Origin: a virus
Taxonomy: Duplodnaviria; Heunggongvirae; Uroviricota; Caudoviricetes
Virus record (IMG/VR): IMGVR_UViG_3300031999_000011
Direction: 5' to 3' (one strand)
Length of the DNA stretch: 13,908 nt
Shown here: positions 5,348 through 12,646 of the stretch, one piece after another
How positions within the stretch are numbered: position 1 is the stretch's first letter
Layout: the number at the start of each line of letters is the position of its first letter
Made by a program: the position numbers and the translations under genes
The notes under the pieces: model-generated
What the model was told of the DNA's origin: nothing
Seen by the model: the letters and a program-made list of their open reading frames with translations, nothing else
Databases searched by the model: none

Positions 5348-5477
5348 GGAGTGGTAGACCGCTATGGAGACGGGAGGGACTGTGTTGGTCACAGGTGTAA
5401 ATCCAGTTCGATTCTGGAGACCAAAAGAAAATCCCTTGCCTTAGGCTCGCCAGGATCATAACCTGGACGCTCCACCA
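5348..5477 (+). tRNA. tRNA-Tyr(GTA)-like gene with a 45-nt insert in the anticodon loop
   Basis: Acceptor GGAGTGG/ACGCTCC+A+CCA, anticodon stem AGGGA/TCCCT, variable arm GCC-TTA-GGC, T stem CCAGG/CCTGG with atypical loop ATCATAA. Removing 5384-5428 gives CT-GTA-AA. Confidence 0.7.
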
Positions 5478-5483
5478 AACAAC

Positions 5484-5521
5484 GACGCCTTGGTACTGGC
5501 GTCTATATAAATAGGTACCAA
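5484..5521 (+). ncRNA. H-type pseudoknot between tRNA genes
   Basis: S1 GACGCC/GGCGTC, S2 TTGGTAC/GTACCAA, connecting loop TATATAAATA. Confidence 0.65.
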
Positions 5522-5529
5522 CGATTTTT

Positions 5530-5604
5530 AGGTTAGTGTTCTAATGGTACGATGTTGGTCTCCAAAACCATGCGATAGGGATTCAAATTCTCTCTAACCT
5601 GCCA
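5530..5604 (+). tRNA. trnW: tRNA-Trp(CCA)
   Basis: AGGTTAG/CTAACCT+G+CCA; anticodon loop CT-CCA-AA; T loop TTCAAAT; weak D arm. Confidence 0.88.
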
Positions 5605-5616
5605 AAATATAAAAAT

Positions 5617-5693
5617 GCGAGTGTAGTTTAACAGGAAGAACATCAGGTTAACCACCTGAAGGCGCTGAGTCAGGGTTCAGCCATTTCGCTCCA
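5617..5693 (+). tRNA. aberrant tRNA: Gly-like body with AAC anticodon and abnormal T loop
   Basis: GCGAGTG..CGC+T+CCA; TCAGG-TT-AAC-CA-CCTGA; T arm GCTGA-GTCAGGGT-TCAGC lacks TTC. Confidence 0.6.
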
Positions 5694-5698
5694 ATTTT

Positions 5699-5766
5699 GT
5701 GGTGATAGCTCAATGGGGGAGTTTTCTATGCGTAGAAGGTCGTCGGTTCGATTCCGATTCACTACA
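5699..5766 (+). pseudogene. tRNA-like gene with the anticodon loop shrunk to 4 nt, no encoded CCA
   Basis: GTGGTGA/TCACTAC, D stem GCTC/GAGT, TTCTA-TGCG-TAGAA, T arm GTCGG-TTCGATT-CCGAT. Confidence 0.65.
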
Positions 5767-5777
5767 AATTAATTTAT

Positions 5778-5856
5778 GTCCCTATAGTTTAGTCAGGCCT
5801 AGAACAACGCCCTTTCACGGCGGGAACGCGGGGTTCAAATCCCCCTAGGGACACCA
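5778..5856 (+). tRNA. trnE: tRNA-Glu(TTC)
   Basis: GTCCCTA/TAGGGAC+A+CCA; CT-TTC-AC loop; TTCAAAT T loop. Confidence 0.93.
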
Positions 5857-5938
5857 AATGTTAACCTCAGTATAGTTAGTTGAGGTTAAATATTCACACA
5901 TGCTGGGCAACCCCCAGAATTGATAGTGGAGCCAGTAC

Positions 5939-6136
5939 GGTGAATTGCTGGTAGCAATTGTTTGATACTATGAAAGCAACGTTAGATGAACTGAAGTTCC
6001 TATAAAAACTGCGCGGATCAATATCGGGCGCTCCCGACGGGTTTGGACTATATCTAATGATGTGATAACTATAGCATGAGGATCCCTGGTGGTCTTCAGA
6101 ATGCGGTTTCGTAGTTGGAAAGCAAACAATTTCACC
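5939..6136 (+). ncRNA. about 200-nt multi-stem ncRNA candidate
   Basis: Pairings GGTGAA/TTCACC, AATTGTTTG/CAAACAATT, ACTATG/CGTAGT, AAACTGCG/TGCGGTTT plus three local hairpins; GC-richer than flanks; no ORF. Confidence 0.6.
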
Positions 6137-6252
6137 ATAAATTTATGAATATAGTTGATCTATTTATTGATTTACTATATTATATTGAATAAGTGATGTT
6201 TGTTGTCGAAATGGATTTTGACATGATAGGGATTGTCAAATTAAATGGATAT

Positions 6253-6329
6253 GAAACGTGTTGCGTAGAGAATAAGTTACTTAAACTTGAAATTAAAATA
6301 AACTCATTTTCAATTTTATCTCATGTTTC
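6253..6329 (+). ncRNA. UUGCGUA/UACUU scaffold element, copy 1
   Basis: P1 GAAACGTG/CATGTTTC; TTGCGTA; P2 GAGAATAAG/CTCATTTTC; TTACTT; cargo contains CT-TGA-AA; 10-nt linker AATTTTATCT. Confidence 0.8.
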
Positions 6330-6380
6330 TTTTTATAAATTCCGATCTATTGTTTGTAAACGATAGATTATACATGTTTT

Positions 6381-6475
6381 GAAAACCTTGTTGCGTAGAT
6401 ATCGAGCTACTTATAACTGCTAATTGGATGACCTTCGGGTCAGTATTCTCGTGTCGTTCTTATCTCAAGGTTTTC
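6381..6475 (+). ncRNA. UUGCGUA/UACUU scaffold element, copy 2
   Basis: P1 GAAAACCTTG/CAAGGTTTTC; P2 GATATCGAG/CTCGTGTC; CTACTT; cargo CT-GCT-AA plus UUCG hairpin; linker GTTCTTATCT. Confidence 0.85.
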
Positions 6476-6493
6476 ATTTTAATTTTTAAGATT

Positions 6494-6934
6494 ATGTTAA
6501 TTAAACAAATAAAAGCTGATATTACATTAGCAAGAAAAGAACACGACAAGTTTAAAGTAGCCCTATTAACTACCTTACTTTCAGATATTCAAATGATTGG
6601 TAAGAACGCGTTACGTGAATCTACTGATTCTGAAGCAACAGGAATTGTTAAAAGATTCATTAAAGGAATTGACGATACTATTGCGTTGTTGAATATTTCA
6701 ACCGAACTTGAAGTAATATCTAATAAATTAAGTCAAGAAAAAGAAATTTTGAGTAAATATTTACCAACTCAATTAGATAATGAAGAGTTATATATTGTAA
6801 TAAATAATGCTATTAATAGTGGCGTTTGTAATACATTGCCATTAATAATGAAATTTTTAAAAGATATGTATCCCGGTCAGTATGACGGTGCAATGGCAAG
6901 TAAAATTGCAAAAGAATTGTTGTTAGTAGCATGA
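6494..6934 (+). CDS. yqeY: GatB/YqeY domain protein
   Basis: Start 6494 (the upstream ATG lies inside RNA copy 2); patterns IKADITLARKEHDK, EKEILSKYLPTQLDNEEL and GQYDGAMASKIAK are typical of YqeY. Confidence 0.88.
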   Translation: MLIKQIKADITLARKEHDKFKVALLTTLLSDIQMIGKNALRESTDSEATGIVKRFIKGIDDTIALLNISTELEVISNKLSQEKEILSKYLPTQLDNEELYIVINNAINSGVCNTLPLIMKFLKDMYPGQYDGAMASKIAKELLLVA

Positions 6935-7053
6935 TTAGTTACACTGAACCAGAAAAAGTTGCAGCATTAAAAGCAAAATACTCATTGGTGTGGGCAGAGT
7001 TTTATGTTAAAGGTGTTACCGCTGCAAAGGTGTTAAAAGATTTGTTTATATGA
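6931..7053 (+). CDS. small hypothetical protein (40 aa)
   Basis: ATGA overlaps with both neighbours; MISYTEPEKVAALKAKYSLVW... Confidence 0.65.
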   Translation: MISYTEPEKVAALKAKYSLVWAEFYVKGVTAAKVLKDLFI

Positions 7054-7268
7054 GTGATATTACAGCGGATTTGTTAGCCACACCAAGATTATTAGTTACT
7101 CGAAATGATGGGTCAAGTAAACCTACTTATTTTGAGATAATGTTAAAAGAAGTTGCACCAAGTGGTTTGTACATGAGGTATCAAACAGTAGGTGCAAGCA
7201 ACAGCCTATGGACTGAAATCGATACATATAAATTGATTGAAGTGTTATGGGAGAATCAGTTGCAATAA
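7050..7268 (+). CDS. hypothetical protein
   Basis: 72-aa ORF, translationally coupled to the upstream ORF. Confidence 0.75.
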   Translation: MSDITADLLATPRLLVTRNDGSSKPTYFEIMLKEVAPSGLYMRYQTVGASNSLWTEIDTYKLIEVLWENQLQ

Positions 7269-7288
7269 ATAAGCAAAGAAATTATAAT
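7260..7288 (+). promoter_or_regulatory. sigma70-type promoter directly before RNA copy 3
   Basis: TTGCAA-N17-TATAAT; copy 3 starts at 7302. Confidence 0.8.
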
Positions 7289-7301
7289 ATATTATAATTT
7301 A

Positions 7302-7460
7302 TTGATAGTTACGTTGCGTAGAGAACAGATACTTCATACCGAAAGCAGATTGTCAGGGGTTCGATTCCCTTCTACCTTCCCTTACAAGAAGGTAGTAGCT
7401 CAGTTGGTAGAGCATCCGCCATAAAAAAGACTGTTTTCGTTTTTAACTCGTAGCTATCAA
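7302..7460 (+). ncRNA. UUGCGUA/UACUU scaffold element, copy 3, carrying a circularly permuted tRNA body
   Basis: P1 TTGATAGTTACG/CGTAGCTATCAA; P2 GAGAACAG/CTGTTTTC; ATACTT; tRNA 3' half (7345-7379) precedes 5' half (7389-7419); linker GTTTTTAACT. Confidence 0.85.
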
Positions 7461-7485
7461 CAAATTATAAAATAAAAAATAAAAG

Positions 7486-7514
7486 TTGCAAAGTTTTAAA
7501 AAAGCATTTATAAT
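7486..7514 (+). promoter_or_regulatory. sigma70-type promoter upstream of RNA copies 4-6
   Basis: TTGCAA-N17-TATAAT with an A-tract upstream; no ORF follows for about 1 kb. Confidence 0.85.
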
Positions 7515-7634
7515 ATGTTTAAGTTTAAAGAATTCAAGACTACTACTCCTTGAATCGGTTAGTTATATGATGTTGGGTTATATAACTAACCACCTCTTGA
7601 TACACTATTTTACATAGTAGGTAAGGGTTGATAT

Positions 7635-7733
7635 ATTAAATTGTTAACATTTCTGTTGCGTTTGTGTCTGTTACTTCTATTGGCTGAAACAACACAGATA
7701 CAGTTTTTAACTCAGAAGTGTTAACAATTTAAT
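7635..7733 (+). ncRNA. scaffold element, copy 4 (core variant UUGCGUU)
   Basis: 21-bp P1; P2 TGTGTCTG/CAGATACA; TTACTT; cargo CT-GAA-AC; linker GTTTTTAACT. Confidence 0.85.
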
Positions 7734-7757
7734 TTATTATAAATAAAAAGAATAAAT

Positions 7758-7865
7758 TAAGTTATATTGTTGATATCTCTGTTGCGTAGAGTGCCCGTTA
7801 CTTCAATGCTATGAAAAATATACGGTAGCTCGATTTTTCCTCAGAGATATCAATAATATAACTTA
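7758..7865 (+). ncRNA. scaffold element, copy 5
   Basis: 24-bp P1; P2 GAGTGCCCG/CGGTAGCTC; TTACTT; cargo CT-ATG-AA; linker GATTTTTCCT. Confidence 0.85.
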
Positions 7866-7978
7866 TATTAATAATACATATGTTGCGTAGAGATCCGTTA
7901 CTTCAAAACATCTGACTTAAAATCTGACACTAATAGTCGGTTTTCATTTTTTTCTCATATGTATTATTAATATAAGTT
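7860..7978 (+). ncRNA. scaffold element, copy 6
   Basis: 23-bp P1; P2 GAGATCCG/CGGTTTTC; TTACTT; cargo TCTGA-CT-TAA-AA-TCTGA; linker ATTTTTTTCT. Confidence 0.85.
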
Positions 7979-7989
7979 TTGAAAGATTT

Positions 7990-8284
7990 TAGTCATCCCC
8001 TTGGCTGATCCGACCTAGTATATGTTTTATGCATTACGTTTGCTAGGTCACCCTATTTAACGAACATAGATACTCTTTATCGGGTATTATGTAACCGGAG
8101 AAACACTATTAGTTTCTCTCGATCTGCTGTATGATAAATCTCCCTTTAGCATACGGCAGATCAATTTAACACTTACTCCATATCTGTATCCGCTTATGGC
8201 GTTGTGTAACGGAAAGGCTATAACAGCTTTCCAGATCTGCTGTATAGTCATGTTTTATTCATTTTTGGATTATACAGCAGGTCA
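7990..8284 (+). repeat. three tandem double-hairpin units (about 110-nt period)
   Basis: Main stems GACCTAGTA/TGCTAGGTC (8012-8049), GATCTGCTGTATG/CATACGGCAGATC (8121-8162), GATCTGCTGTATA/TATACAGCAGGTC (8234-8283), each preceded by a short hairpin. Confidence 0.7.
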
Positions 8285-8321
8285 CTTTTATGATATAATC
8301 CTTAGTCAAAGTGATATTATT

Positions 8322-8383
8322 AAGCCCTAATTTAAAGTTATATATTATAACTACCACGTTGTGGAGTAATTAGGGTTTTTTTT
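8322..8383 (+). terminator. branched hairpin plus T-tract, probable intrinsic terminator of the ncRNA block
   Basis: AAGCCCTAATT/AATTAGGGTTT enclosing two small hairpins; the 3' strand runs into a T8 tract. Confidence 0.6.
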
Positions 8384-8474
8384 CATAATGGTATAATTAT
8401 GTTGTTGAATAATGTTTAACAACATAATTACGTTTGTAAAAATGCATATATACATAAAGGTATAAAAGTTTATT

Positions 8475-8565
8475 GGAAAAGTCCCATAATGGTAGTGGAG
8501 CAGATTGCTAATCTGTCGGTCGGTGATGAATTGGCTTCTGGGTTCAAGTCCCAGCTTTTCCGCCA
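8475..8565 (+). tRNA. trnS: tRNA-Ser(GCT)
   Basis: GGAAAAG/CTTTTCC+G+CCA; TT-GCT-AA loop; long variable arm. Confidence 0.92.
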
Positions 8566-8589
8566 AAAATAAGTTATAGGAGTATTAAC

Positions 8590-8796
8590 ATGAACGGTCC
8601 TGGTAAATATGATAATATATGTACCGTAGCTAGAGTGGCAGCAGACGCTGATTGTGCTATAGTTATTATAATTAATGGGAATCATGGATCTGGATTTTCA
8701 GTACAATGTACAGAAGGTTTAGTTTTAGATATTCCAAGTATATTAGAACACGTAATTAAAGATATGCGTAGTTCAATTAATATATTAGTGAATTAA
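8590..8796 (+). CDS. hypothetical protein
   Basis: AGGAG RBS; 68 aa. Confidence 0.8.
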   Translation: MNGPGKYDNICTVARVAADADCAIVIIINGNHGSGFSVQCTEGLVLDIPSILEHVIKDMRSSINILVN

Positions 8797-8804
8797 AAGT
8801 TTTT

Positions 8805-8894
8805 GAAGAATAGAGAGATGGCATGGATGGCATCTATGTTCGCCCAAGTCGCGATTAAATATCTACCAGGTCTAGATTCCTGGGTTCTTCACCA
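8805..8894 (+). pseudogene. degenerate tRNA-like gene (Leu-like A73, long variable region)
   Basis: GAAGAAT/GTTCTTC+A+CCA; T stem CCAGG/CCTGG with 8-nt loop; TCGC-CCAAGTC-GCGA anticodon-like arm lacking U33. Confidence 0.55.
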
Positions 8895-8909
8895 GATATA
8901 AATGAATAT

Positions 8910-8999
8910 GGAAGATGAACTGGACAAGCGTACCAGACTTGACTTGAAATCAATGGGAACGGGTGACCGTTTGGGGAGCATGCCCTCCATCTTTCGCCA
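8910..8999 (+). tRNA. trnS: tRNA-Ser(TGA) with atypical T loop
   Basis: GGAAGAT/ATCTTTC+G+CCA; TTGA-CT-TGA-AA-TCAA; variable arm AACGG-GTGA-CCGTT; T loop AGCATGC. Confidence 0.85.
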
Positions 9000-9030
9000 A
9001 ATTTGATAGTAAACATTTTAAGGTTGCAAA

Positions 9031-9498
9031 ATGGCTAATGGTGAACCAAAACAAGTTATTGTGATAAGAAATGACCTCAATATGAGGCGTGGAAAACAAA
9101 TAGCTCAGGGTGCTCACGCATCATTAAAAGCGATTTTAAATCTTGGACAAATGTTTCGTGATTATAGCGATATTAATGGTAACTTGATTGATATTCATTA
9201 TAATATTACTTTATTTAAAGAACGAAAGCAATGGAGTGGTGAACCCGATATAAATCATCAAGCAGTAATTGAATGGTTAGAAGGTCGATTTACTAAAATT
9301 TGTGTTCAAGTTAGTTCAGAAGATGAATTATTAAATATTTATAATAATGCAGTTGATGCAGGTATTAAATGTAGAGCACTCATTGAAGATGCCGGTTTAA
9401 CTGAATTTGGTGGTGTTAAAACATTAACTTGTTGTGCTATTGGACCTGCGTATCCAGAAGATGTAGATAAGATAACAAGCCATTTAAAGCTTTTATGA
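9031..9498 (+). CDS. pth2: peptidyl-tRNA hydrolase type 2 (Pth2)
   Basis: Motifs KQVIVIRNDLNMRRGKQIAQGAHAS, KICVQV, DAGLTEF, TCCAIGP, DKITSHLKLL. Confidence 0.95.
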   Translation: MANGEPKQVIVIRNDLNMRRGKQIAQGAHASLKAILNLGQMFRDYSDINGNLIDIHYNITLFKERKQWSGEPDINHQAVIEWLEGRFTKICVQVSSEDELLNIYNNAVDAGIKCRALIEDAGLTEFGGVKTLTCCAIGPAYPEDVDKITSHLKLL

Positions 9499-9755
9499 CA
9501 AAAACATATAGTGTTGCCCAATTATGGATAGATACAATGGAAAATCATAATGCTTATGGGTATTCCATGATTGGGTTTACATCAGATGAAAATTTGATCA
9601 AACAGTTGAATGAGATTGTTGTTAAAAAGGATATGTTTCCATATCCATTGAATTATGTACAAAATAATCAGGATACTGTACCATGGTTTAAGATAAGAGA
9701 AATAACCTTATTGAATGATATTTCAGATATCGATTTCAGATATCGATTTAACTAG
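9495..9755 (+). CDS. hypothetical protein
   Basis: ATGA-coupled to pth2; 86 aa; 13-bp tandem duplication at its 3' end. Confidence 0.75.
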   Translation: MTKTYSVAQLWIDTMENHNAYGYSMIGFTSDENLIKQLNEIVVKKDMFPYPLNYVQNNQDTVPWFKIREITLLNDISDIDFRYRFN

Positions 9756-9773
9756 CTATTAGATTTTAATGTA

Positions 9774-9902
9774 ATGAATAATGTTAGATTATTATGTCCA
9801 ATATGTTTTAGTTTTATTAAATATCGTATGACTATCGTAAATAGTAAAAAAGTTCTAGTTTATGCTCGTTGTTTGAATATGGAATGTCTTCGAAATAACT
9901 AG
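9774..9902 (+). CDS. small putative Zn-ribbon protein (42 aa)
   Basis: MNNVRLLCPICFS...ARCLNMECLRNN: CxxC plus CxxxxC. Confidence 0.5.
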   Translation: MNNVRLLCPICFSFIKYRMTIVNSKKVLVYARCLNMECLRNN

Positions 9903-9906
9903 AATT

Positions 9907-10012
9907 AAATGAACATGGTCTCATCCTAGGACCTGATGTTGGAAAGACCGGGAATACATAACCGGCTGTAAGCGAACCTGCATATAGGAAGGGGTGTGGA
10001 ATTCCCCCATTT
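9907..10012 (+). ncRNA. about 105-nt structured RNA candidate upstream of tRNA-Ala
   Basis: Closing AAATG/CATTT; AACAT/ATGTT enclosing GGTCT/GGACC; CCGG/CCGG; CCT/AGG; GGGG/CCCC. Confidence 0.45.
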
Positions 10013-10018
10013 ATTTTT

Positions 10019-10096
10019 GGGGCTTTAGCTCAGTTGGTAGAGCGCCTGCCTTGCACGCAGGGTCTGTCCGGGGTTCAATTCCCCGAAGCTCCACCA
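10019..10096 (+). tRNA. trnA: tRNA-Ala(TGC)
   Basis: GGGGCTT/AAGCTCC+A+CCA with G3:U70; CT-TGC-AC loop. Confidence 0.95.
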
Positions 10097-10129
10097 AATT
10101 TGATATAGTGACACTGGTATAATTGATAA

Positions 10130-10885
10130 ATGGATTTTCTAGATAGAATACCTTATACTTATTTAGTTAAATGTATACCAACTAATCAGTGTTATTACGG
10201 TAGTAGAACTGCTAAAGGTTGTGATCCGAGTGAATTATGGATTAGGTATTTTACATCATCAAAGGTGATACAACGATTAATTGTTGAGTATGGTGTAGAA
10301 TCATTTCAATATTCAATTAGGAAAATATTTAAATCTAAATTATTAGCTGTTAAATGGGAAATGACGGTATTGCGTAGATTAAAAACTGCTCAATCTGATA
10401 AATGGATTAACCTTCATAATGGAGGTAATAAATTTATACATATATTACACAGTCAAAAAACCCGAGATAAAATATCTAGAATAGTTAAAAATAGGTCACG
10501 TGATATAGTTAATAAAACAGCTAATACGTTAAAGAGAAAACATGCAAGTGGTGAGTTAGTATCAGTGTTTAAAACTAACAACCCTCAACACACAATAAGT
10601 GGTAAGCAAAAACAGAAAGCAGTATTTAATAAAATTAAACATCAACAAGGTATTAAAAATTCACAGTTTGGTACAATGTGGATTAACAATGGTGTAAATA
10701 ATCAAAAAAGACAAAAATGTGAATGTATTCCAGCTGGATGGAATCAAGGTAGAATATTATCTCGAAATACACATAAGTGGATAAATGATGGTATTAAAAG
10801 TACAAAGTTATTAATATTTAACCCAATACCTGATGGTTGGCAATTAGGTAGGGTAAATAAAACCAAGTCTGGACCGGTCGGCTAA
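10130..10885 (+). CDS. GIY-YIG (Seg-like) free-standing homing endonuclease
   Basis: N-terminal PYTYL..YYGSR variant of the GIY-YIG motif, conserved E and N, basic linker, two C-terminal WIN(N/D)G...IP.GW..GR repeats; sits among tRNAs like T4 segB. Confidence 0.85.
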   Translation: MDFLDRIPYTYLVKCIPTNQCYYGSRTAKGCDPSELWIRYFTSSKVIQRLIVEYGVESFQYSIRKIFKSKLLAVKWEMTVLRRLKTAQSDKWINLHNGGNKFIHILHSQKTRDKISRIVKNRSRDIVNKTANTLKRKHASGELVSVFKTNNPQHTISGKQKQKAVFNKIKHQQGIKNSQFGTMWINNGVNNQKRQKCECIPAGWNQGRILSRNTHKWINDGIKSTKLLIFNPIPDGWQLGRVNKTKSGPVG

Positions 10886-10946
10886 GAGGTAAGCCACCAA
10901 ACTCATAATTTGGCTGATGGGGGATCATGGCCCTCCCGGTCCACCA
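10871..10946 (+). tRNA. tRNA-CAT (elongator Met or Ile2)
   Basis: GGACCGG/CCGGTCC+A+CCA; CCAAA-CT-CAT-AA-TTTGG; no initiator GGG/CCC pairs; atypical T loop ATCATGG. Confidence 0.85.
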
Positions 10947-11028
10947 ATAAACTTGCAAGTAGCTGCTATGAGCTTCACGTGTGCTCTGCCCATAGAAAAG
11001 CAACACCGTGACCAATTTTAAATATTAT

Positions 11029-11126
11029 GGCTACCAGGTTCAGGCCTGATCCTATCCGGGTACCCCTAAGTACACGGGCGACAAGGACGGATTGGTGCTA
11101 GGGTTCGAATCCCTAGCTAGTCGCCG
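11029..11126 (+). pseudogene. long aberrant tRNA-like gene with CTA in a 6-nt loop
   Basis: GGCTACC/GCTAGTC+G+CCG; canonical T arm TAGGG-TTCGAAT-CCCTA; GTAC-CCCTAA-GTAC. Confidence 0.55.
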
Positions 11127-11151
11127 ATTTTATAACTGCAATGAGTGTATA

Positions 11152-11508
11152 ATGCAATTAACGAATAAAGAAATTGTTAAGCGATTAGCAGATTTAAAGC
11201 GAGTTAAAGCAGACTTTGATGTATTTGTGATACAAGTACAAATTGATTGTCTTCATGATCATATTGCAGAATGGGATACAGCAGCTTCAGCTCCATTACG
11301 TGTTTGTTTACATTGTGGACTAACAGAAGAAGGTTGGGGATGTGGGTTTATTGTTTTAAAGAATAAAACAGAATTAGGTGTACCTACAATTGATCAAAAA
11401 AGATATTACGAATTAAGACAAGGTGCTTATATCCGCGATGATGATAAAGGGCCATTGTTAAGAAAAGAAATAACCTTGGAAGCTTTAATAAGCAAAAAAG
11501 GTCAGTAA
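11152..11508 (+). CDS. hypothetical protein with a Cys/His cluster
   Basis: Start 11152 (the upstream GTG lies in the tRNA-like gene); CLHDH..CLHCG..C, possibly metal-binding. Confidence 0.75.
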   Translation: MQLTNKEIVKRLADLKRVKADFDVFVIQVQIDCLHDHIAEWDTAASAPLRVCLHCGLTEEGWGCGFIVLKNKTELGVPTIDQKRYYELRQGAYIRDDDKGPLLRKEITLEALISKKGQ

Positions 11509-11517
11509 AAGTTTATT

Positions 11518-11642
11518 ACCGGAGTGATGGGGAATCGGTATACCCTGGCGACGAATTCATAGTGAGGGAGCAGTCATTGGACTTTCAAAGTAACCTCTTT
11601 CGTAAATTGCTGCTTGTGTGGGTTCGAGGCCCGTCTTTGGTA
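11518..11642 (+). tRNA. tRNA-like gene with about 48 extra nt in the anticodon loop (identity unresolved)
   Basis: ACCGGAG/CTTTGGT+A, D arm GGG-GAATCGGTATA-CCC, anticodon stem GGCGA/TTGCT enclosing 55 nt, T arm GTGGG-TTCGAGG-CCCGT; no encoded CCA. Confidence 0.6.
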
Positions 11643-11662
11643 CTCTAAATTAAAGAATACAT

Positions 11663-12058
11663 ATGAGATTAATAGAATTAGTTTTAAATCCTGATCCTCC
11701 ATTAGAGGAGATGGCAAATTTATTTAAAACAGAAACTGGTTTAGATTATCCATTATGGGTTGGTAAGGTTGGGGGACAGCACGGACCTCGAGTTAAGGTA
11801 TCGAATATTCGTGGAAAAATGTCTATGAATAATAATTTTGTCGTGAGTGTTGATCCTAATCCAGAAGTTATTACACCACAAACATGTAACATCGACCAAA
11901 ATGATGTTGACAAAGTAAAAAAATGGATAAGTATTAACTACGATGATTTAATGACTTTATGGTGGATGTTTGAACATGGTGCTATTGAGGTAAAGGATGT
12001 TGATACTGGAAAAATAATAAAGTATGATGATATACTTTATGGTTTTAAAAAAGTTTAA
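11663..12058 (+). CDS. hypothetical phage protein (weak DUF4160-like)
   Basis: MRLIEL..PLEE leader, then MANL..TGL..W...QHGPRVKVS; family call tentative. Confidence 0.7.
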   Translation: MRLIELVLNPDPPLEEMANLFKTETGLDYPLWVGKVGGQHGPRVKVSNIRGKMSMNNNFVVSVDPNPEVITPQTCNIDQNDVDKVKKWISINYDDLMTLWWMFEHGAIEVKDVDTGKIIKYDDILYGFKKV

Positions 12059-12066
12059 AGAATAAT

Positions 12067-12185
12067 GGGGATGTGGTGAAATTTGGTATATGCAGCGGAC
12101 TTTTTCAAGGGCTTGTAGTAATACGAGTCTTTCTAAAAATCCGCCGGCTTCGGTCATGCCGGTTCGAGTCCGGCCTTCCCTACCA
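12067..12185 (+). tRNA. tRNA-Leu(TAA)-like gene with a 33-nt insert at anticodon position 34/35
   Basis: GGGGATG/CTTCCCT+A+CCA, Leu-type D loop, GCGGA/TCCGC stem, UUCG variable arm, canonical T arm; removing 12103-12135 gives CT-TAA-AA. Confidence 0.8.
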
Positions 12186-12199
12186 ATTTAAGGATGTAA

Positions 12200-12466
12200 A
12201 TGAAACTAGAAGAATTAAAAGATTGTTTGTTATCTATTCCTGATGCTGATTTGGATAATTTCGCTAAAGATTTTATTCGAAAGTGGAATATAACTCCAAC
12301 AGCAATTCAACTTTTAGAAGTGTTGGATAATATAGTTCGATATAGTTTATCATGCGATTTGGTGGTACAGTTTTTAGATATGCAATTAAAAACTGTAATG
12401 CTAAACGAAAACATTACTATGGAAGAACTTGAAGTACATGCTATTTGGAGAAACCAAATGAACTAA
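12200..12466 (+). CDS. hypothetical protein
   Basis: AAGGA RBS; 88 aa between tRNA genes. Confidence 0.8.
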   Translation: MKLEELKDCLLSIPDADLDNFAKDFIRKWNITPTAIQLLEVLDNIVRYSLSCDLVVQFLDMQLKTVMLNENITMEELEVHAIWRNQMN

Positions 12467-12467
12467 T

Positions 12468-12554
12468 GCACTTGTGATGGAACGGTTTACATAGCGGGCT
12501 CAAAACCCGTCCCCCTTGTTAGGGTTGTCAGTTCGAATCTGACCAGGTGTACCA
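12468..12554 (+). tRNA. trnL: tRNA-Leu(CAA)
   Basis: GCACTTG/CAGGTGT+A+CCA; GCGGG-CT-CAA-AA-CCCGT; long variable arm. Confidence 0.93.
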
Positions 12555-12561
12555 AAGTATT

Positions 12562-12646
12562 GCCTTTGTGATGGAATGCATACATGCTTGGCTAAGAACC
12601 AAGTGCCTTTAGTGGATTGTGGGTTCGAGTCCCATCAAAGGTACCA
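12562..12646 (+). tRNA. trnL: tRNA-Leu(AAG)
   Basis: GCCTTTG/CAAAGGT+A+CCA; CTTGG-CT-AAG-AA-CCAAG; long variable arm; canonical T loop. Confidence 0.9.

What the first reader, a model, noticed from the sequence alone, without database searches (positions are those of the whole stretch)
5348..12646. Integrated hypothesis: an anticodon-centred RNA counter-defence or tRNA-splicing system
Seen: anomalies concentrate at anticodons across the island: three tRNAs with anticodon inserts, two with shortened loops, A34 anticodons, and six scaffolds presenting anticodon fragments or a permuted tRNA. Inference: these parts may act together, with tRNA bodies lacking a cleavable loop and loops supplied separately on scaffolds, either as decoys for host anticodon nucleases or as substrates of a phage cleavage-ligation pathway. 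No nuclease or ligase gene is visible in this window.
Basis: inference. Interest (0 to 1): 0.8.

Follow-up and report, generated by a model that had tools for sequence, protein, structure and literature searches.

The report
Phage Y-RNA array in tRNA island
The six "scaffolds" are phage copies of Y RNAs, the small RNAs that partner the Ro60 protein, sitting in a tRNA and RNA-repair gene island; they do not display anticodons, so the proposed anticodon decoy or splicing system is mostly not what is there.

Summary
There are six structured RNA copies at 6253-7963. Two tRNAs carry inserts inside the anticodon: Tyr-GUA with 45 nt and Leu-UAA with 33 nt. A third tRNA-like gene is unresolved. One tRNA has a 6-nt anticodon loop, and two have A34 anticodons.

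The scaffolds are Y-RNA modules of the Ro60 (TROVE) system. A covariance model (R1) built from them hits just upstream or downstream of TROVE genes, always on the same strand, in dozens of independent phage and metagenome contigs (42 of 42 hits in one set). It finds nothing in about 107 chance loci. Copy 3 is a YrlA-type permuted tRNA mimic.

The cargo "anticodons" occur at chance frequency. One differs between two strains that are 97% identical, and one belongs to a motif conserved across the family.

No TROVE, RtcB or RNA ligase gene lies within about -19 to +79 kb. The region does hold a CCA-adding enzyme, two PTH2, a Thg1-like gene, P-loop kinases, SIR2 and NADAR. In three complete jumbo phages, copies of the same RNA lie far from TROVE (about 60 to over 100 kb); in two of them no copy is adjacent.

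Many "intron tRNAs" in TROVE loci elsewhere are tRNA bodies whose anticodon arm is the Y module. The window's three insert-bearing genes lack that module and stay unexplained.

The scan's earlier notes I saw concern this genome only.

The parts
5348..5477 (+). tRNA-Tyr(GUA) body (type II, ACCA end) with a 45-nt insert at 5384-5428 between anticodon positions 35 and 36. The insert is a 6-bp stem stacked on a canonical T-arm-like hairpin.
   Evidence: Called as tRNA-Tyr after in-silico removal of the insert. Fold. 100% identical in variant strain L141. Insert unique in all held DNA.
5530..5604 (+). tRNA-Trp(CCA)
   Evidence: Rfam 44.8 bits; ARAGORN with relaxed threshold.
5617..5690 (+). Weak tRNA with anticodon loop UUAACCA (A34, Val-type AAC), an 8-nt T loop and a bulged acceptor stem.
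   Evidence: Rfam tRNA 31.3 bits, with alignment.
5698..5767 (+). tRNA with a 6-nt anticodon loop and no encoded CCA.
   Evidence: ARAGORN 'tRNA-??? (gc)'; Rfam 41.9 bits with a 4-nt loop.
5778..5856 (+). tRNA-Glu(UUC)
6253..6329 (+). Y-RNA-like copy 1 (short form).
   Evidence: R1 64.2 bits. Compensatory changes in both stems against strain L141.
6383..6473 (+). Y-RNA-like copy 2. Its cargo is a UUCG-capped hairpin.
   Evidence: R1 39.7 bits, not in training set. Compensatory changes against L141.
7306..7456 (+). Y-RNA-like copy 3, YrlA type. The module encloses a T arm, an 8-bp closed acceptor-like stem and a D arm. A TTGCAA-17-TATAAT promoter-like site lies at 7260-7288.
   Evidence: Rfam YrlA 37.5 bits, E 1.5e-5, below the gathering score of 69. 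R1 hits both halves. Promoter scan.
7648..7720 (+). Y-RNA-like copy 4 (5' motif variant UUGCGUUUG).
   Evidence: R1 62.4 bits. Fold z-score -7.3. Promoter-like site at 7486-7514.
7774..7849 (+). Y-RNA-like copy 5.
   Evidence: R1 60.8 bits. Fold z-score -9.1.
7875..7963 (+). Y-RNA-like copy 6.
   Evidence: R1 50.3 bits, not in training set.
6494..6934 (+). YqeY-like (GatB-type tRNA-associated domain) protein.
   Evidence: Pfam PF09424, E 1.6e-16. Start taken from the gene calls. A homologue lies next to the Y-RNA copies in L058.
8475..8565 (+). tRNA-Ser(GCU)
9031..9498 (+). Peptidyl-tRNA hydrolase, PTH2 family.
   Evidence: Pfam PF01981, E 1.5e-29.
10019..10096 (+). tRNA-Ala(UGC)
10130..10885 (+). 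Homing-endonuclease-like ORF whose 3' end overlaps the start of tRNA-Met.
   Evidence: phrog_314, E 5.6e-16.
10871..10946 (+). tRNA-Met(CAU) with T loop AUCAUGG (A54/U58 swapped).
11518..11642 (+). tRNA-like RNA with an acceptor stem, a T arm and a 55-nt irregular arm in place of the anticodon loop. Identity unresolved.
   Evidence: Sequence reading and fold. Not callable as a tRNA.
12067..12185 (+). tRNA-Leu(UAA) body with a 33-nt insert at position 33/34 or 34/35. The whole anticodon arm can form a rod of about 21 bp capped by GUAA.
12468..12554 (+). tRNA-Leu(CAA)
12562..12646 (+). tRNA-Leu(AAG), A34.

Best explanation
The stretch is the tRNA and small-RNA island of a large, AT-rich, uncultured phage. 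It holds several things that are not one machine.

(1) Ordinary and mildly aberrant tRNAs supply the phage's favoured codons.

(2) Six Y-RNA genes share a two-stem module. Stem S1 is closed by an invariant G-C pair. A 5' strand UUGCGUAGA follows, then stem S2, then UUACUUC. The 3' strand ends in CUC.

(3) In relatives this module sits beside the Ro60/TROVE gene. By inference it is the Ro60-binding part. The variable cargo is the tether for a partner, as in the known Ro60-Y RNA-PNPase complex. The cargos here are one tRNA-like domain and five short hairpins.

(4) The Ro60 protein would be encoded elsewhere in this genome, as in related jumbo phages, or supplied by the host.

(5) Three tRNA-shaped genes have the anticodon loop replaced or interrupted. 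Their role is open. They may be spliced tRNAs for the heavily used TTA and TAT codons, or non-decoding tRNA mimics.

Shown here: the RNA family, its covarying structure and its linkage to TROVE in other contigs. Inferred: Ro60 binding, any function in RNA quality control or repair, and the presence of Ro60 in this phage or its host.
For: Linkage to TROVE:
- L008 has five tandem copies directly upstream of a TROVE gene (Pfam E 6e-33), followed by ten tRNAs. L120 has four copies.
- Of 118 loci fetched by DNA pattern alone, R1 hits 11. Seven of these carry TROVE inside the fetched piece, against 0 of 107 without a hit (Fisher p 6e-9). Three more carry TROVE elsewhere on a complete genome.
- In loci fetched by TROVE protein only, R1 hits lie just upstream on the same strand in L120, L121, L125, L126, L127 and L128.
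- In 80 metagenome TROVE loci, 34 have hits and 42 of 42 hits are on the TROVE strand (p 2e-13).

Structure:
- 14 of 15 pairs covary in the seed alignment.
- Across 67 members, 90% of cells are paired. The covariation score is 0.846 against 0.195 for shuffles and at most 0.19 for slid controls.
- Copies 1 and 2 show compensatory changes against a 97%-identical strain, while the tRNA cluster is identical.

Other support:
- Copy 3 hits Rfam YrlA at E 1.5e-5.
- Dispersed arrangement: in complete phages G001 and G003 every copy lies far from TROVE (about 90 kb and over 100 kb). G004 has one copy adjacent to TROVE plus dispersed ones.
- Literature: YrlA is a tRNA mimic found with a shorter second Y RNA, on the same strand and near Ro60, including in phages (PMC4201824). 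Phage phiLo Ro60 binds two phage Y-like RNAs and host PNPase (PMC12135203). TROVE with a tRNA-like partner is listed among jumbo-phage RNA-repair systems (PMC7824862).
Against: - No TROVE gene lies within about -19 to +79 kb of the array on the phage's own contigs. The only ORF of Ro60 size, 519 aa, is not TROVE.
- Copy 3 scores 37.5 bits, well below the Rfam YrlA gathering score of 69. No R1-positive TROVE locus that I tested reaches that score either.
- The published GNCGAAN0-1G motif is matched only approximately (UGCGUAG here, GNCGUAGA in relatives).
- Ro60 binding is untested.
- The A6 alignment was fitted to the model, which inflates its pair counts.
Confidence: 0.78

Rival explanations
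1. The scaffolds display anticodon loops in trans and the insert-bearing tRNAs are loop-less bodies. Together they act as decoys for host anticodon nucleases, or as substrates of a phage cleavage-ligation pathway that joins loops to bodies.
For: - Copy 6 contains UCUGA-CUUAAAA-UCUGA, the same 7-nt loop as a Leu(UAA) anticodon loop, and the Leu(UAA) gene is the one with an insert.
- tRNA-repair genes are nearby: a CCA-adding enzyme, a Thg1-like gene and AAA_33 kinases.
- Phage tRNAs are known to counter anticodon nucleases (PMC10264068, PMC11555353).
Against: - Such loop look-alikes occur about 15 per kb in this AT-rich window.
- The 'anticodon' of copy 2 is not conserved between strains.
- The one in copy 1 is the family-wide UGAAA motif.
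- Relatives' cargos are not anticodon-like.
- The scaffold tracks TROVE, not nucleases or ligases.
- No ligase was found in about 100 kb of the phage's own DNA.
Confidence: 0.07
2. The Tyr(GUA) and Leu(UAA) genes are true intron-bearing tRNA genes. Their short inserts are removed by a pathway not yet described in bacteria or phages. For the Tyr gene, the nested acceptor/T-arm minihelix could be cut out by RNase P and RNase Z, and the halves then joined by an RNA ligase.
For: - Removing the inserts gives well-formed type II tRNAs with an ACCA end.
- Their codons are in high demand: TTA 335 and TAT 232 in a sample of 6328 phage codons. No other Leu(UAA) or Tyr tRNA lies in the window.
- An RNase P cut 5' of G5384 would fall exactly at the required 5' junction (sequence reading).
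- Rnl2-type ligases are present in related jumbo phages.
Against: - The inserts are far too short for group I or II introns.
- There is no bulge-helix-bulge, and the inserts lie inside the anticodon (34/35, 35/36) rather than at 37/38.
- The predicted RNase Z cut would be 2 nt away from the junction needed.
- No ligase was found in about 100 kb of this phage's DNA.
- No RNA data are available.
Confidence: 0.2
3. The three insert-bearing genes are non-decoding tRNA mimics. A protein-binding arm replaces the anticodon loop, by analogy with the tRNA-bodied Y RNAs found next to TROVE elsewhere.
For: - In TROVE loci, at least 13 of 35 'intron tRNA' calls carry the Y module in the anticodon position. 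L175, L193, L100, L058 and L205 are examples.
- The Leu gene's arm forms a continuous rod with a GNRA cap.
- Established knowledge: LeuRS does not read the anticodon, so such an RNA could still be charged.
Against: - None of the three has the R1 module.
- No homologues of their inserts were found in any held DNA.
- No partner is known.
Confidence: 0.3
4. The six scaffolds are not functional RNAs. They would be repeated palindromic DNA elements or terminators in a gene-poor stretch.
For: They have long perfect outer stems and run in tandem.
Against: - Both stems covary across 67 members from unrelated contigs, and between two strains.
- The single-stranded motifs are conserved.
- Placement beside TROVE is strand-specific.
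- There are promoter-like sites upstream but no U tracts of the terminator type.
Confidence: 0.02

Closest known systems
Bacterial and phage Y RNAs: YrlA (Rfam RF02553), YrlB (Chen et al. 2014, PMC4201824)
   Same: - A long stem is formed by the two ends, with a conserved 5'-strand motif.
- One RNA per locus has a T arm, an acceptor-like stem and a D arm attached at the anticodon position, and is accompanied by shorter hairpin Y RNAs.
- The RNAs are encoded on the same strand as Ro60 and near it, often among tRNAs.
- Phages are included.
   Different: - Six copies here, and no Ro60 gene within about 100 kb.
- The motif is UUGCGUAGA...UUACUUC rather than GNCGAAN0-1G.
- The score is below the Rfam gathering threshold.
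- Relatives include forms whose ends lie in the acceptor stem, with the Ro60-type module capped by a loop.
Thermus phage phiLo Ro60 with Yrl1 and Yrl2 (PMC12135203)
   Same: A phage encodes several Y-like RNAs that bind a phage Ro60 and assemble with host PNPase.
   Different: In phiLo the RNAs lie directly upstream of the Ro60 gene and carry a CGAA motif. Binding was shown there and not here.
Salmonella rsr-yrlBA-rtcBA RNA repair operon (PMC7790460)
   Same: Y RNAs and Ro60 are linked to the response to damaged tRNAs. This gives a possible rationale for a Y-RNA array inside a tRNA and repair island.
   Different: No RtcB, RtcA or RtcR was found here or in the three complete relatives. The repair genes nearby are a CCA-adding enzyme, a Thg1-like gene, PTH2 and P-loop kinases.
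Phage tRNA islands that escape anticodon nucleases (PMC10264068, PMC11555353)
   Same: A dense tRNA cluster with unusual anticodon loops (A34, a 6-nt loop) in a large phage.
   Different: That idea concerns decoding-competent tRNAs with point changes. It explains neither the scaffolds nor the 33-45-nt inserts.
Group I intron of tRNA-Leu(UAA) at position 34/35 (established knowledge, cyanobacteria and plastids)
   Same: The same tRNA and the same insertion position as 12067-12185.
   Different: A 33-nt hairpin cannot form a group I catalytic core.

Membership tests
Y RNA / YrlA-type Ro60 partner | Encoded near a Ro60/TROVE gene and on the same strand. | tested here: inconclusive
   Met for the RNA family in relatives. 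Not met on the window's own contigs from -19 to +79 kb. Complete relatives show copies far from TROVE, about 60 to over 100 kb.
Y RNA / YrlA-type Ro60 partner | A long stem formed by the 5' and 3' ends, with internal loops, supported by covariation. | tested here: met
Y RNA / YrlA-type Ro60 partner | At least one RNA of the locus has a tRNA-like domain (T arm, acceptor-like stem, D arm). | tested here: met
   Copy 3 at 7306-7456. The same holds in L026, L068, L019, L052 and L099.
Y RNA / YrlA-type Ro60 partner | The conserved 5' motif GNCGAAN0-1G. | tested here: inconclusive
   The window has UUGCGUAGA and relatives have GNCGUAGA. This is similar but not identical to the motif quoted in PMC4201824.
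Y RNA / YrlA-type Ro60 partner | Reaches the Rfam RF02553 gathering score (69 bits). | tested here: not met
   37.5 bits for copy 3. No YrlA hit at gathering score in 18 R1-positive TROVE loci.
Y RNA / YrlA-type Ro60 partner | Bound and stabilised by Ro60. | not testable with these tools
   Needs a pull-down or gel shift.
Anticodon-loop mimic or decoy | The cargo forms a 5-bp stem with a 7-nt loop (U33, R37), conserved and matched to the tRNA set. | tested here: not met
   Frequency at chance level, not conserved between strains, and absent from relatives' cargos.
Group I intron in a tRNA | A catalytic core of roughly 200 nt or more. | tested here: not met
   The inserts are 33 and 45 nt. No Rfam intron hit.
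Archaeal or eukaryal tRNA intron | A bulge-helix-bulge at the exon-intron junctions, usually at position 37/38. | tested here: not met
   The inserts lie at 33/34 or 34/35 and at 35/36. The junctions sit in continuous helix or loop with no two 3-nt bulges.

The most novel reading that the evidence does not exclude
Phages of this kind may treat the anticodon arm of a tRNA body as a swappable socket. In TROVE loci the socket often holds the Ro60-type module, in either circular permutation. In this phage, three further tRNA bodies (Tyr, Leu and one unresolved) hold other modules: a nested acceptor/T-arm minihelix, a GNRA-capped rod and an irregular arm. These modules would either recruit unknown partners or be removed by an undescribed RNase P/Z-plus-ligase type of splicing.
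Probability: 0.2. Interest if true: 0.75.

Novelty: new member of a known kind. Interest (0 to 1): 0.45.

Why it matters
This turns an attractive but wrong reading (anticodon decoys) into a testable and mostly known one: a phage-encoded set of Y RNAs.

It also gives some useful by-products:
- A covariance model for a Y-RNA subfamily that the Rfam YrlA model misses at its gathering score, and that marks Ro60 loci in many phage and metagenome contigs.
- Evidence that Y-RNA arrays can lie far from the Ro60 gene, inside tRNA islands.
- The observation that many 'intron-containing tRNAs' predicted in such loci are really tRNA-bodied Y RNAs. This matters for tRNA annotation of large phages.

The two type II tRNAs with short inserts inside the anticodon remain a real puzzle.

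Tried and rejected
- Near and distant DNA searches of the phage collection found only tRNA-level matches.
- The window is not in IMG/VR by exact pattern. Its PTH2 has no close relative there.
- No whole genome is held for the window, and its JGI record cannot be searched as a handle.
- I walked the phage's own contigs with ten exact-protein look-ups. This covered about -19 to +79 kb and found no TROVE, RtcB or RNA ligase.
- The 519-aa ORF was tested against Pfam and a TROVE profile and is not TROVE.
- A metagenome scan with a TROVE profile returned the best 80 of 459 relatives. None is attributable to this phage by sample name and G+C content.
- RtcB is absent from five related records.
- Model R1 finds nothing in the second tandem family at 7990-8284, nor in the three insert-bearing tRNAs.
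- The inserts are not repeated elements.
- An exhaustive deletion scan of 11518-11642 never gives a callable tRNA.
- The short-loop tRNA shows no specific homology to the odd-loop tRNAs of L058 and L099.
- An RNase III-type excision of the Leu insert was considered and rejected. The stagger of the required cuts has the wrong polarity (sequence reading).
- Comparing 'insert tRNA' frequency with the chance loci was useless as a control, because those loci hold only 4 tRNAs.

Full report
WHAT IS IN THE STRETCH

The window is AT-rich (32.6% G+C). It looks like phage DNA, with short same-strand ORFs, PHROG hits and a homing-endonuclease-like ORF. It has no near relative among deposited phages.

ARAGORN and Rfam together give these tRNAs:
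- Trp(CCA) at 5530
- a weak tRNA at 5617-5690
- a tRNA with a 6-nt anticodon loop at 5698-5767
- Glu(UUC), Ser(GCU), Ala(UGC), Met(CAU), Leu(CAA) and Leu(AAG)

Between them lie a YqeY-domain protein and a PTH2 peptidyl-tRNA hydrolase.

THE tRNA ANOMALIES

- Removing 5384-5428 turns 5348-5477 into a well-formed type II tRNA-Tyr(GUA) with an ACCA end. Removing 12103-12135 turns 12067-12185 into tRNA-Leu(UAA). These two inserts are therefore real. They lie inside the anticodon, at 35/36 in Tyr and at 33/34 or 34/35 in Leu.
- The Tyr insert is a 6-bp stem stacked on a canonical T-arm hairpin. The Leu insert extends the anticodon stem into a rod of about 21 bp capped by GUAA.
- The third candidate, 11518-11642, has an acceptor stem and a T arm. 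No deletion rescues it as a tRNA, and Rfam does not see it.
- A34 is confirmed for Leu(AAG) and for the weak tRNA with loop UUAACCA.
- I could confirm only one shortened loop.
- The A34 tRNAs match the preferred U-ending codons of the phage: CTT is the commonest CTN codon and GTT the commonest GTN codon. TTA and TAT are in high demand.

THE SCAFFOLDS

All six copies share one plan:
- an outer stem S1 closed by a G-C pair
- the 5' strand UUGCGUAGA (UUGCGUUUG in copy 4)
- an inner stem S2
- UUACUUC
- a variable cargo
- the return strand of S2
- a U-rich strand ending in CUC, then the return strand of S1

Copy 3 carries a T arm, a closed 8-bp acceptor-like stem and a D arm. It hits Rfam YrlA at 37.5 bits (E 1.5e-5), below the gathering score of 69.

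An IMG/VR pattern scan returned mostly chance matches. One locus, L008, stood out. It has five tandem copies of the same design directly upstream of a gene that Pfam calls TROVE, the Ro60 domain (E 6e-33). Ten tRNAs follow.

LINKAGE TO Ro60

I built covariance model R1 from three window copies and six IMG/VR copies. In the seed alignment 14 of 15 pairs covary.

- In the window, R1 finds exactly the six copies, including the two left out of training.
- Among the 118 pattern-fetched loci it hits 11. Seven of those have TROVE inside the fetched piece, against none of the other 107 (Fisher p 6e-9). Three more are complete 345-360 kb phage genomes that carry TROVE elsewhere.
- In ten loci fetched purely by TROVE protein similarity, R1 hits lie just upstream on the same strand in L120, L121, L125, L126, L127 and L128.
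- In 80 metagenome loci fetched with a TROVE profile, 34 have R1 hits. All 42 hits are on the TROVE strand (p 2e-13).
- Across 67 members, 90% of pair cells are standard pairs. The covariation score is 0.846, against 0.195 for shuffles and at most 0.19 for slid controls. The caveat is that this alignment was fitted to the model.
- A variant strain (L141, 97% identical) has an identical tRNA cluster but diverged copies 1 and 2, with compensatory changes in both stems.

This is the signature described for bacterial and phage Y RNAs. They are encoded on the same strand as Ro60 and near it. One copy per locus is a tRNA mimic, and it is accompanied by shorter hairpin Y RNAs (PMC4201824). Binding of phage Y-like RNAs to a phage Ro60 and to host PNPase has been shown for Thermus phage phiLo (PMC12135203).

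THE CARGOS ARE NOT ANTICODONS

- A loose search for anticodon-stem-loop look-alikes with U33 and R37 finds about 15 per kb over the whole window, so one per cargo is expected by chance.
- The CUGCUAA of copy 2 is CUGUUAA in the variant strain, while the neighbouring hairpin is conserved.
- The CUUGAAA of copy 1 contains UGAAA. This motif recurs in the short members from unrelated contigs and pairs with the conserved UUCA.
- Cargos in relatives are tRNA-like domains or short hairpins, not anticodon arms.

WHERE IS Ro60?

I walked the phage's own contigs by exact-protein look-ups, covering about 19 kb upstream and about 79 kb downstream of the array. No TROVE, RtcB or RNA ligase appears. The one ORF of the right size, 519 aa, is not TROVE.

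The region contains no structural or replication genes, so the genome must be much larger.

It is rich in tRNA-related and NAD-related genes:
- a CCA-adding enzyme 3.2 kb past the window end
- SIR2 and NADAR
- a second PTH2
- two AAA_33 P-loop kinases
- two formyltransferase-domain proteins
- a Thg1-like gene
- an SNase-domain nuclease (PF00565)
- QueF

In the complete relatives the same RNA family also lies away from TROVE. G001 has five copies about 90 kb from it. G003 has three copies more than 100 kb away. G004 has one copy 1.2 kb upstream of TROVE plus two dispersed copies. Those genomes have a CCA-adding enzyme and Rnl2-type ligases but no RtcB. The missing neighbour therefore weakens the Y-RNA reading for this phage but does not refute it.

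THE LINK BETWEEN SCAFFOLDS AND 'INSERT tRNAs'

Running ARAGORN with introns allowed over 100 TROVE or R1-positive loci gave 327 plain tRNAs and 35 intron-type calls that do not overlap a plain tRNA (686 kb in all). By inspection, at least 13 of the 35 inserts consist of three parts:
- the 3' half of the Y module
- a short cap
- the 5' half of the Y module

Examples are L175, L193, L205, L100 and L058.

These are tRNA bodies with an open acceptor stem, a D arm and a T arm, whose anticodon arm is the Ro60-type module. They are the circular permutation of YrlA.

The reason is different, though: they are two layouts of one Ro60-partner design. The window's own three insert-bearing genes do not contain the module, and their inserts have no relatives in the DNA I hold.

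MECHANISM AND STATUS OF EACH STEP

Shown:
- the RNA family
- its conserved two-stem module
- strand-specific linkage to TROVE in other contigs
- the tRNA-like domain in copy 3
- promoter-like TTGCAA-17-TATAAT sites before copy 3 and before copies 4-6

Inferred from the cited work:
- the module binds a Ro60 ring
- the cargos tether or gate partners such as PNPase
- the RNP acts on structured or damaged RNA during infection
- copy 3, with its 8-bp acceptor-like stem, might be opened by RNase P and given CCA, as reported for Mycobacterium smegmatis YrlA (PMC4201824), with the phage's own CCA-adding enzyme at hand

Unknown:
- the source of Ro60
- the fate of the Tyr and Leu genes with inserts

For those two genes I rate a non-decoding mimic at 0.3 and real splicing by an undescribed route at 0.2.

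VERDICT

The anticodon-centred interpretation is not. The scaffolds are new members of the known Y-RNA kind, in a subfamily that Rfam's YrlA model does not reach at its threshold. The short inserts inside the anticodons of two type II tRNAs remain unexplained and deserve RNA-level work.

Noticed in passing
L143:7003-12436 (same phage, about 9-13 kb upstream of the window start): Genes for a Csy1-sized protein (351 aa), Csy2 (PF09614), Csy3 (PF09615) and a 153-181-aa protein. They are followed by a 1.8-kb gene-free stretch with about 20 copies of the hairpin repeat ATCACCGAGTAGGTGATTTAGAA, mostly about 60 nt apart. This looks like a phage-borne type I-F-like Cascade with a CRISPR array. No Cas1 or Cas2-3 was seen in the part examined.
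   Followed up: partly
L229:14307-15895 and neighbours (same phage, about +70 kb): A Thg1-like gene (PF04446, the 3'-5' tRNA 5'-end repair family) lies next to a divergently oriented AAA_33/zeta-toxin-like kinase. Nearby are a sigma-70 factor, an SNase-domain nuclease (PF00565), a formyltransferase-domain protein and QueF. Copy 3 of the Y array has a His-like extra G:C pair on its acceptor-like stem.
   Followed up: no
window 5870-6135: A 266-nt stretch, visibly G+C-richer than the window and free of + strand ORFs of 50 aa or more (one 56-aa ORF lies on the - strand), between tRNA-Glu and Y copy 1. It is 98.9% identical in the variant strain, while the flanking Y copies diverge. There is no Rfam hit. 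It may be another structured RNA.
   Followed up: partly
window 5484-5521: A pseudoknot-capable spacer (GACGCC/GGCGUC hairpin whose loop UUGGUAC can pair with a downstream GGUACCAA) between the Tyr-like gene and tRNA-Trp. It is identical in the variant strain. I did not test it further.
   Followed up: no
   Followed up: partly
L159:2388-2580, L192:5593-5787, L168:2369-2571, L205:1735-1937, L222:287-486: Five unrelated TROVE-linked contigs carry tRNA-like genes with a conserved 100-127-nt insert (shared blocks GCAGUGCACCGAAAUG and AGUAGGGAAG). L205, the only one of the five I scanned against Rfam (gathering threshold), has no family match over its insert. This may be another Ro60-associated RNA class or a small intron-like element.
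   Followed up: no
L058:1922-1994, L058:6522-6599, L099:5581-5650, L122:9897-9969, L126:7430-7504, L196:2370-2442: tRNAs with 6-nt or 8-nt anticodon loops recur in these TROVE or Y-RNA tRNA islands (6 of 327 plain calls). The window's 5698-5767 fits the same pattern.
   Followed up: partly
window 10871-10946 and 5450-5466: Two T loops read AUCAU.. instead of UUCRA.., so positions 54 and 58 are swapped to A54/U58. They belong to tRNA-Met and to the Tyr-like gene.
   Followed up: no
window 10130-10885: The homing-endonuclease-like ORF ends inside the first bases of tRNA-Met(CAU). The gene caller did not call it in the JGI copy, although the DNA there is identical.
   Followed up: partly
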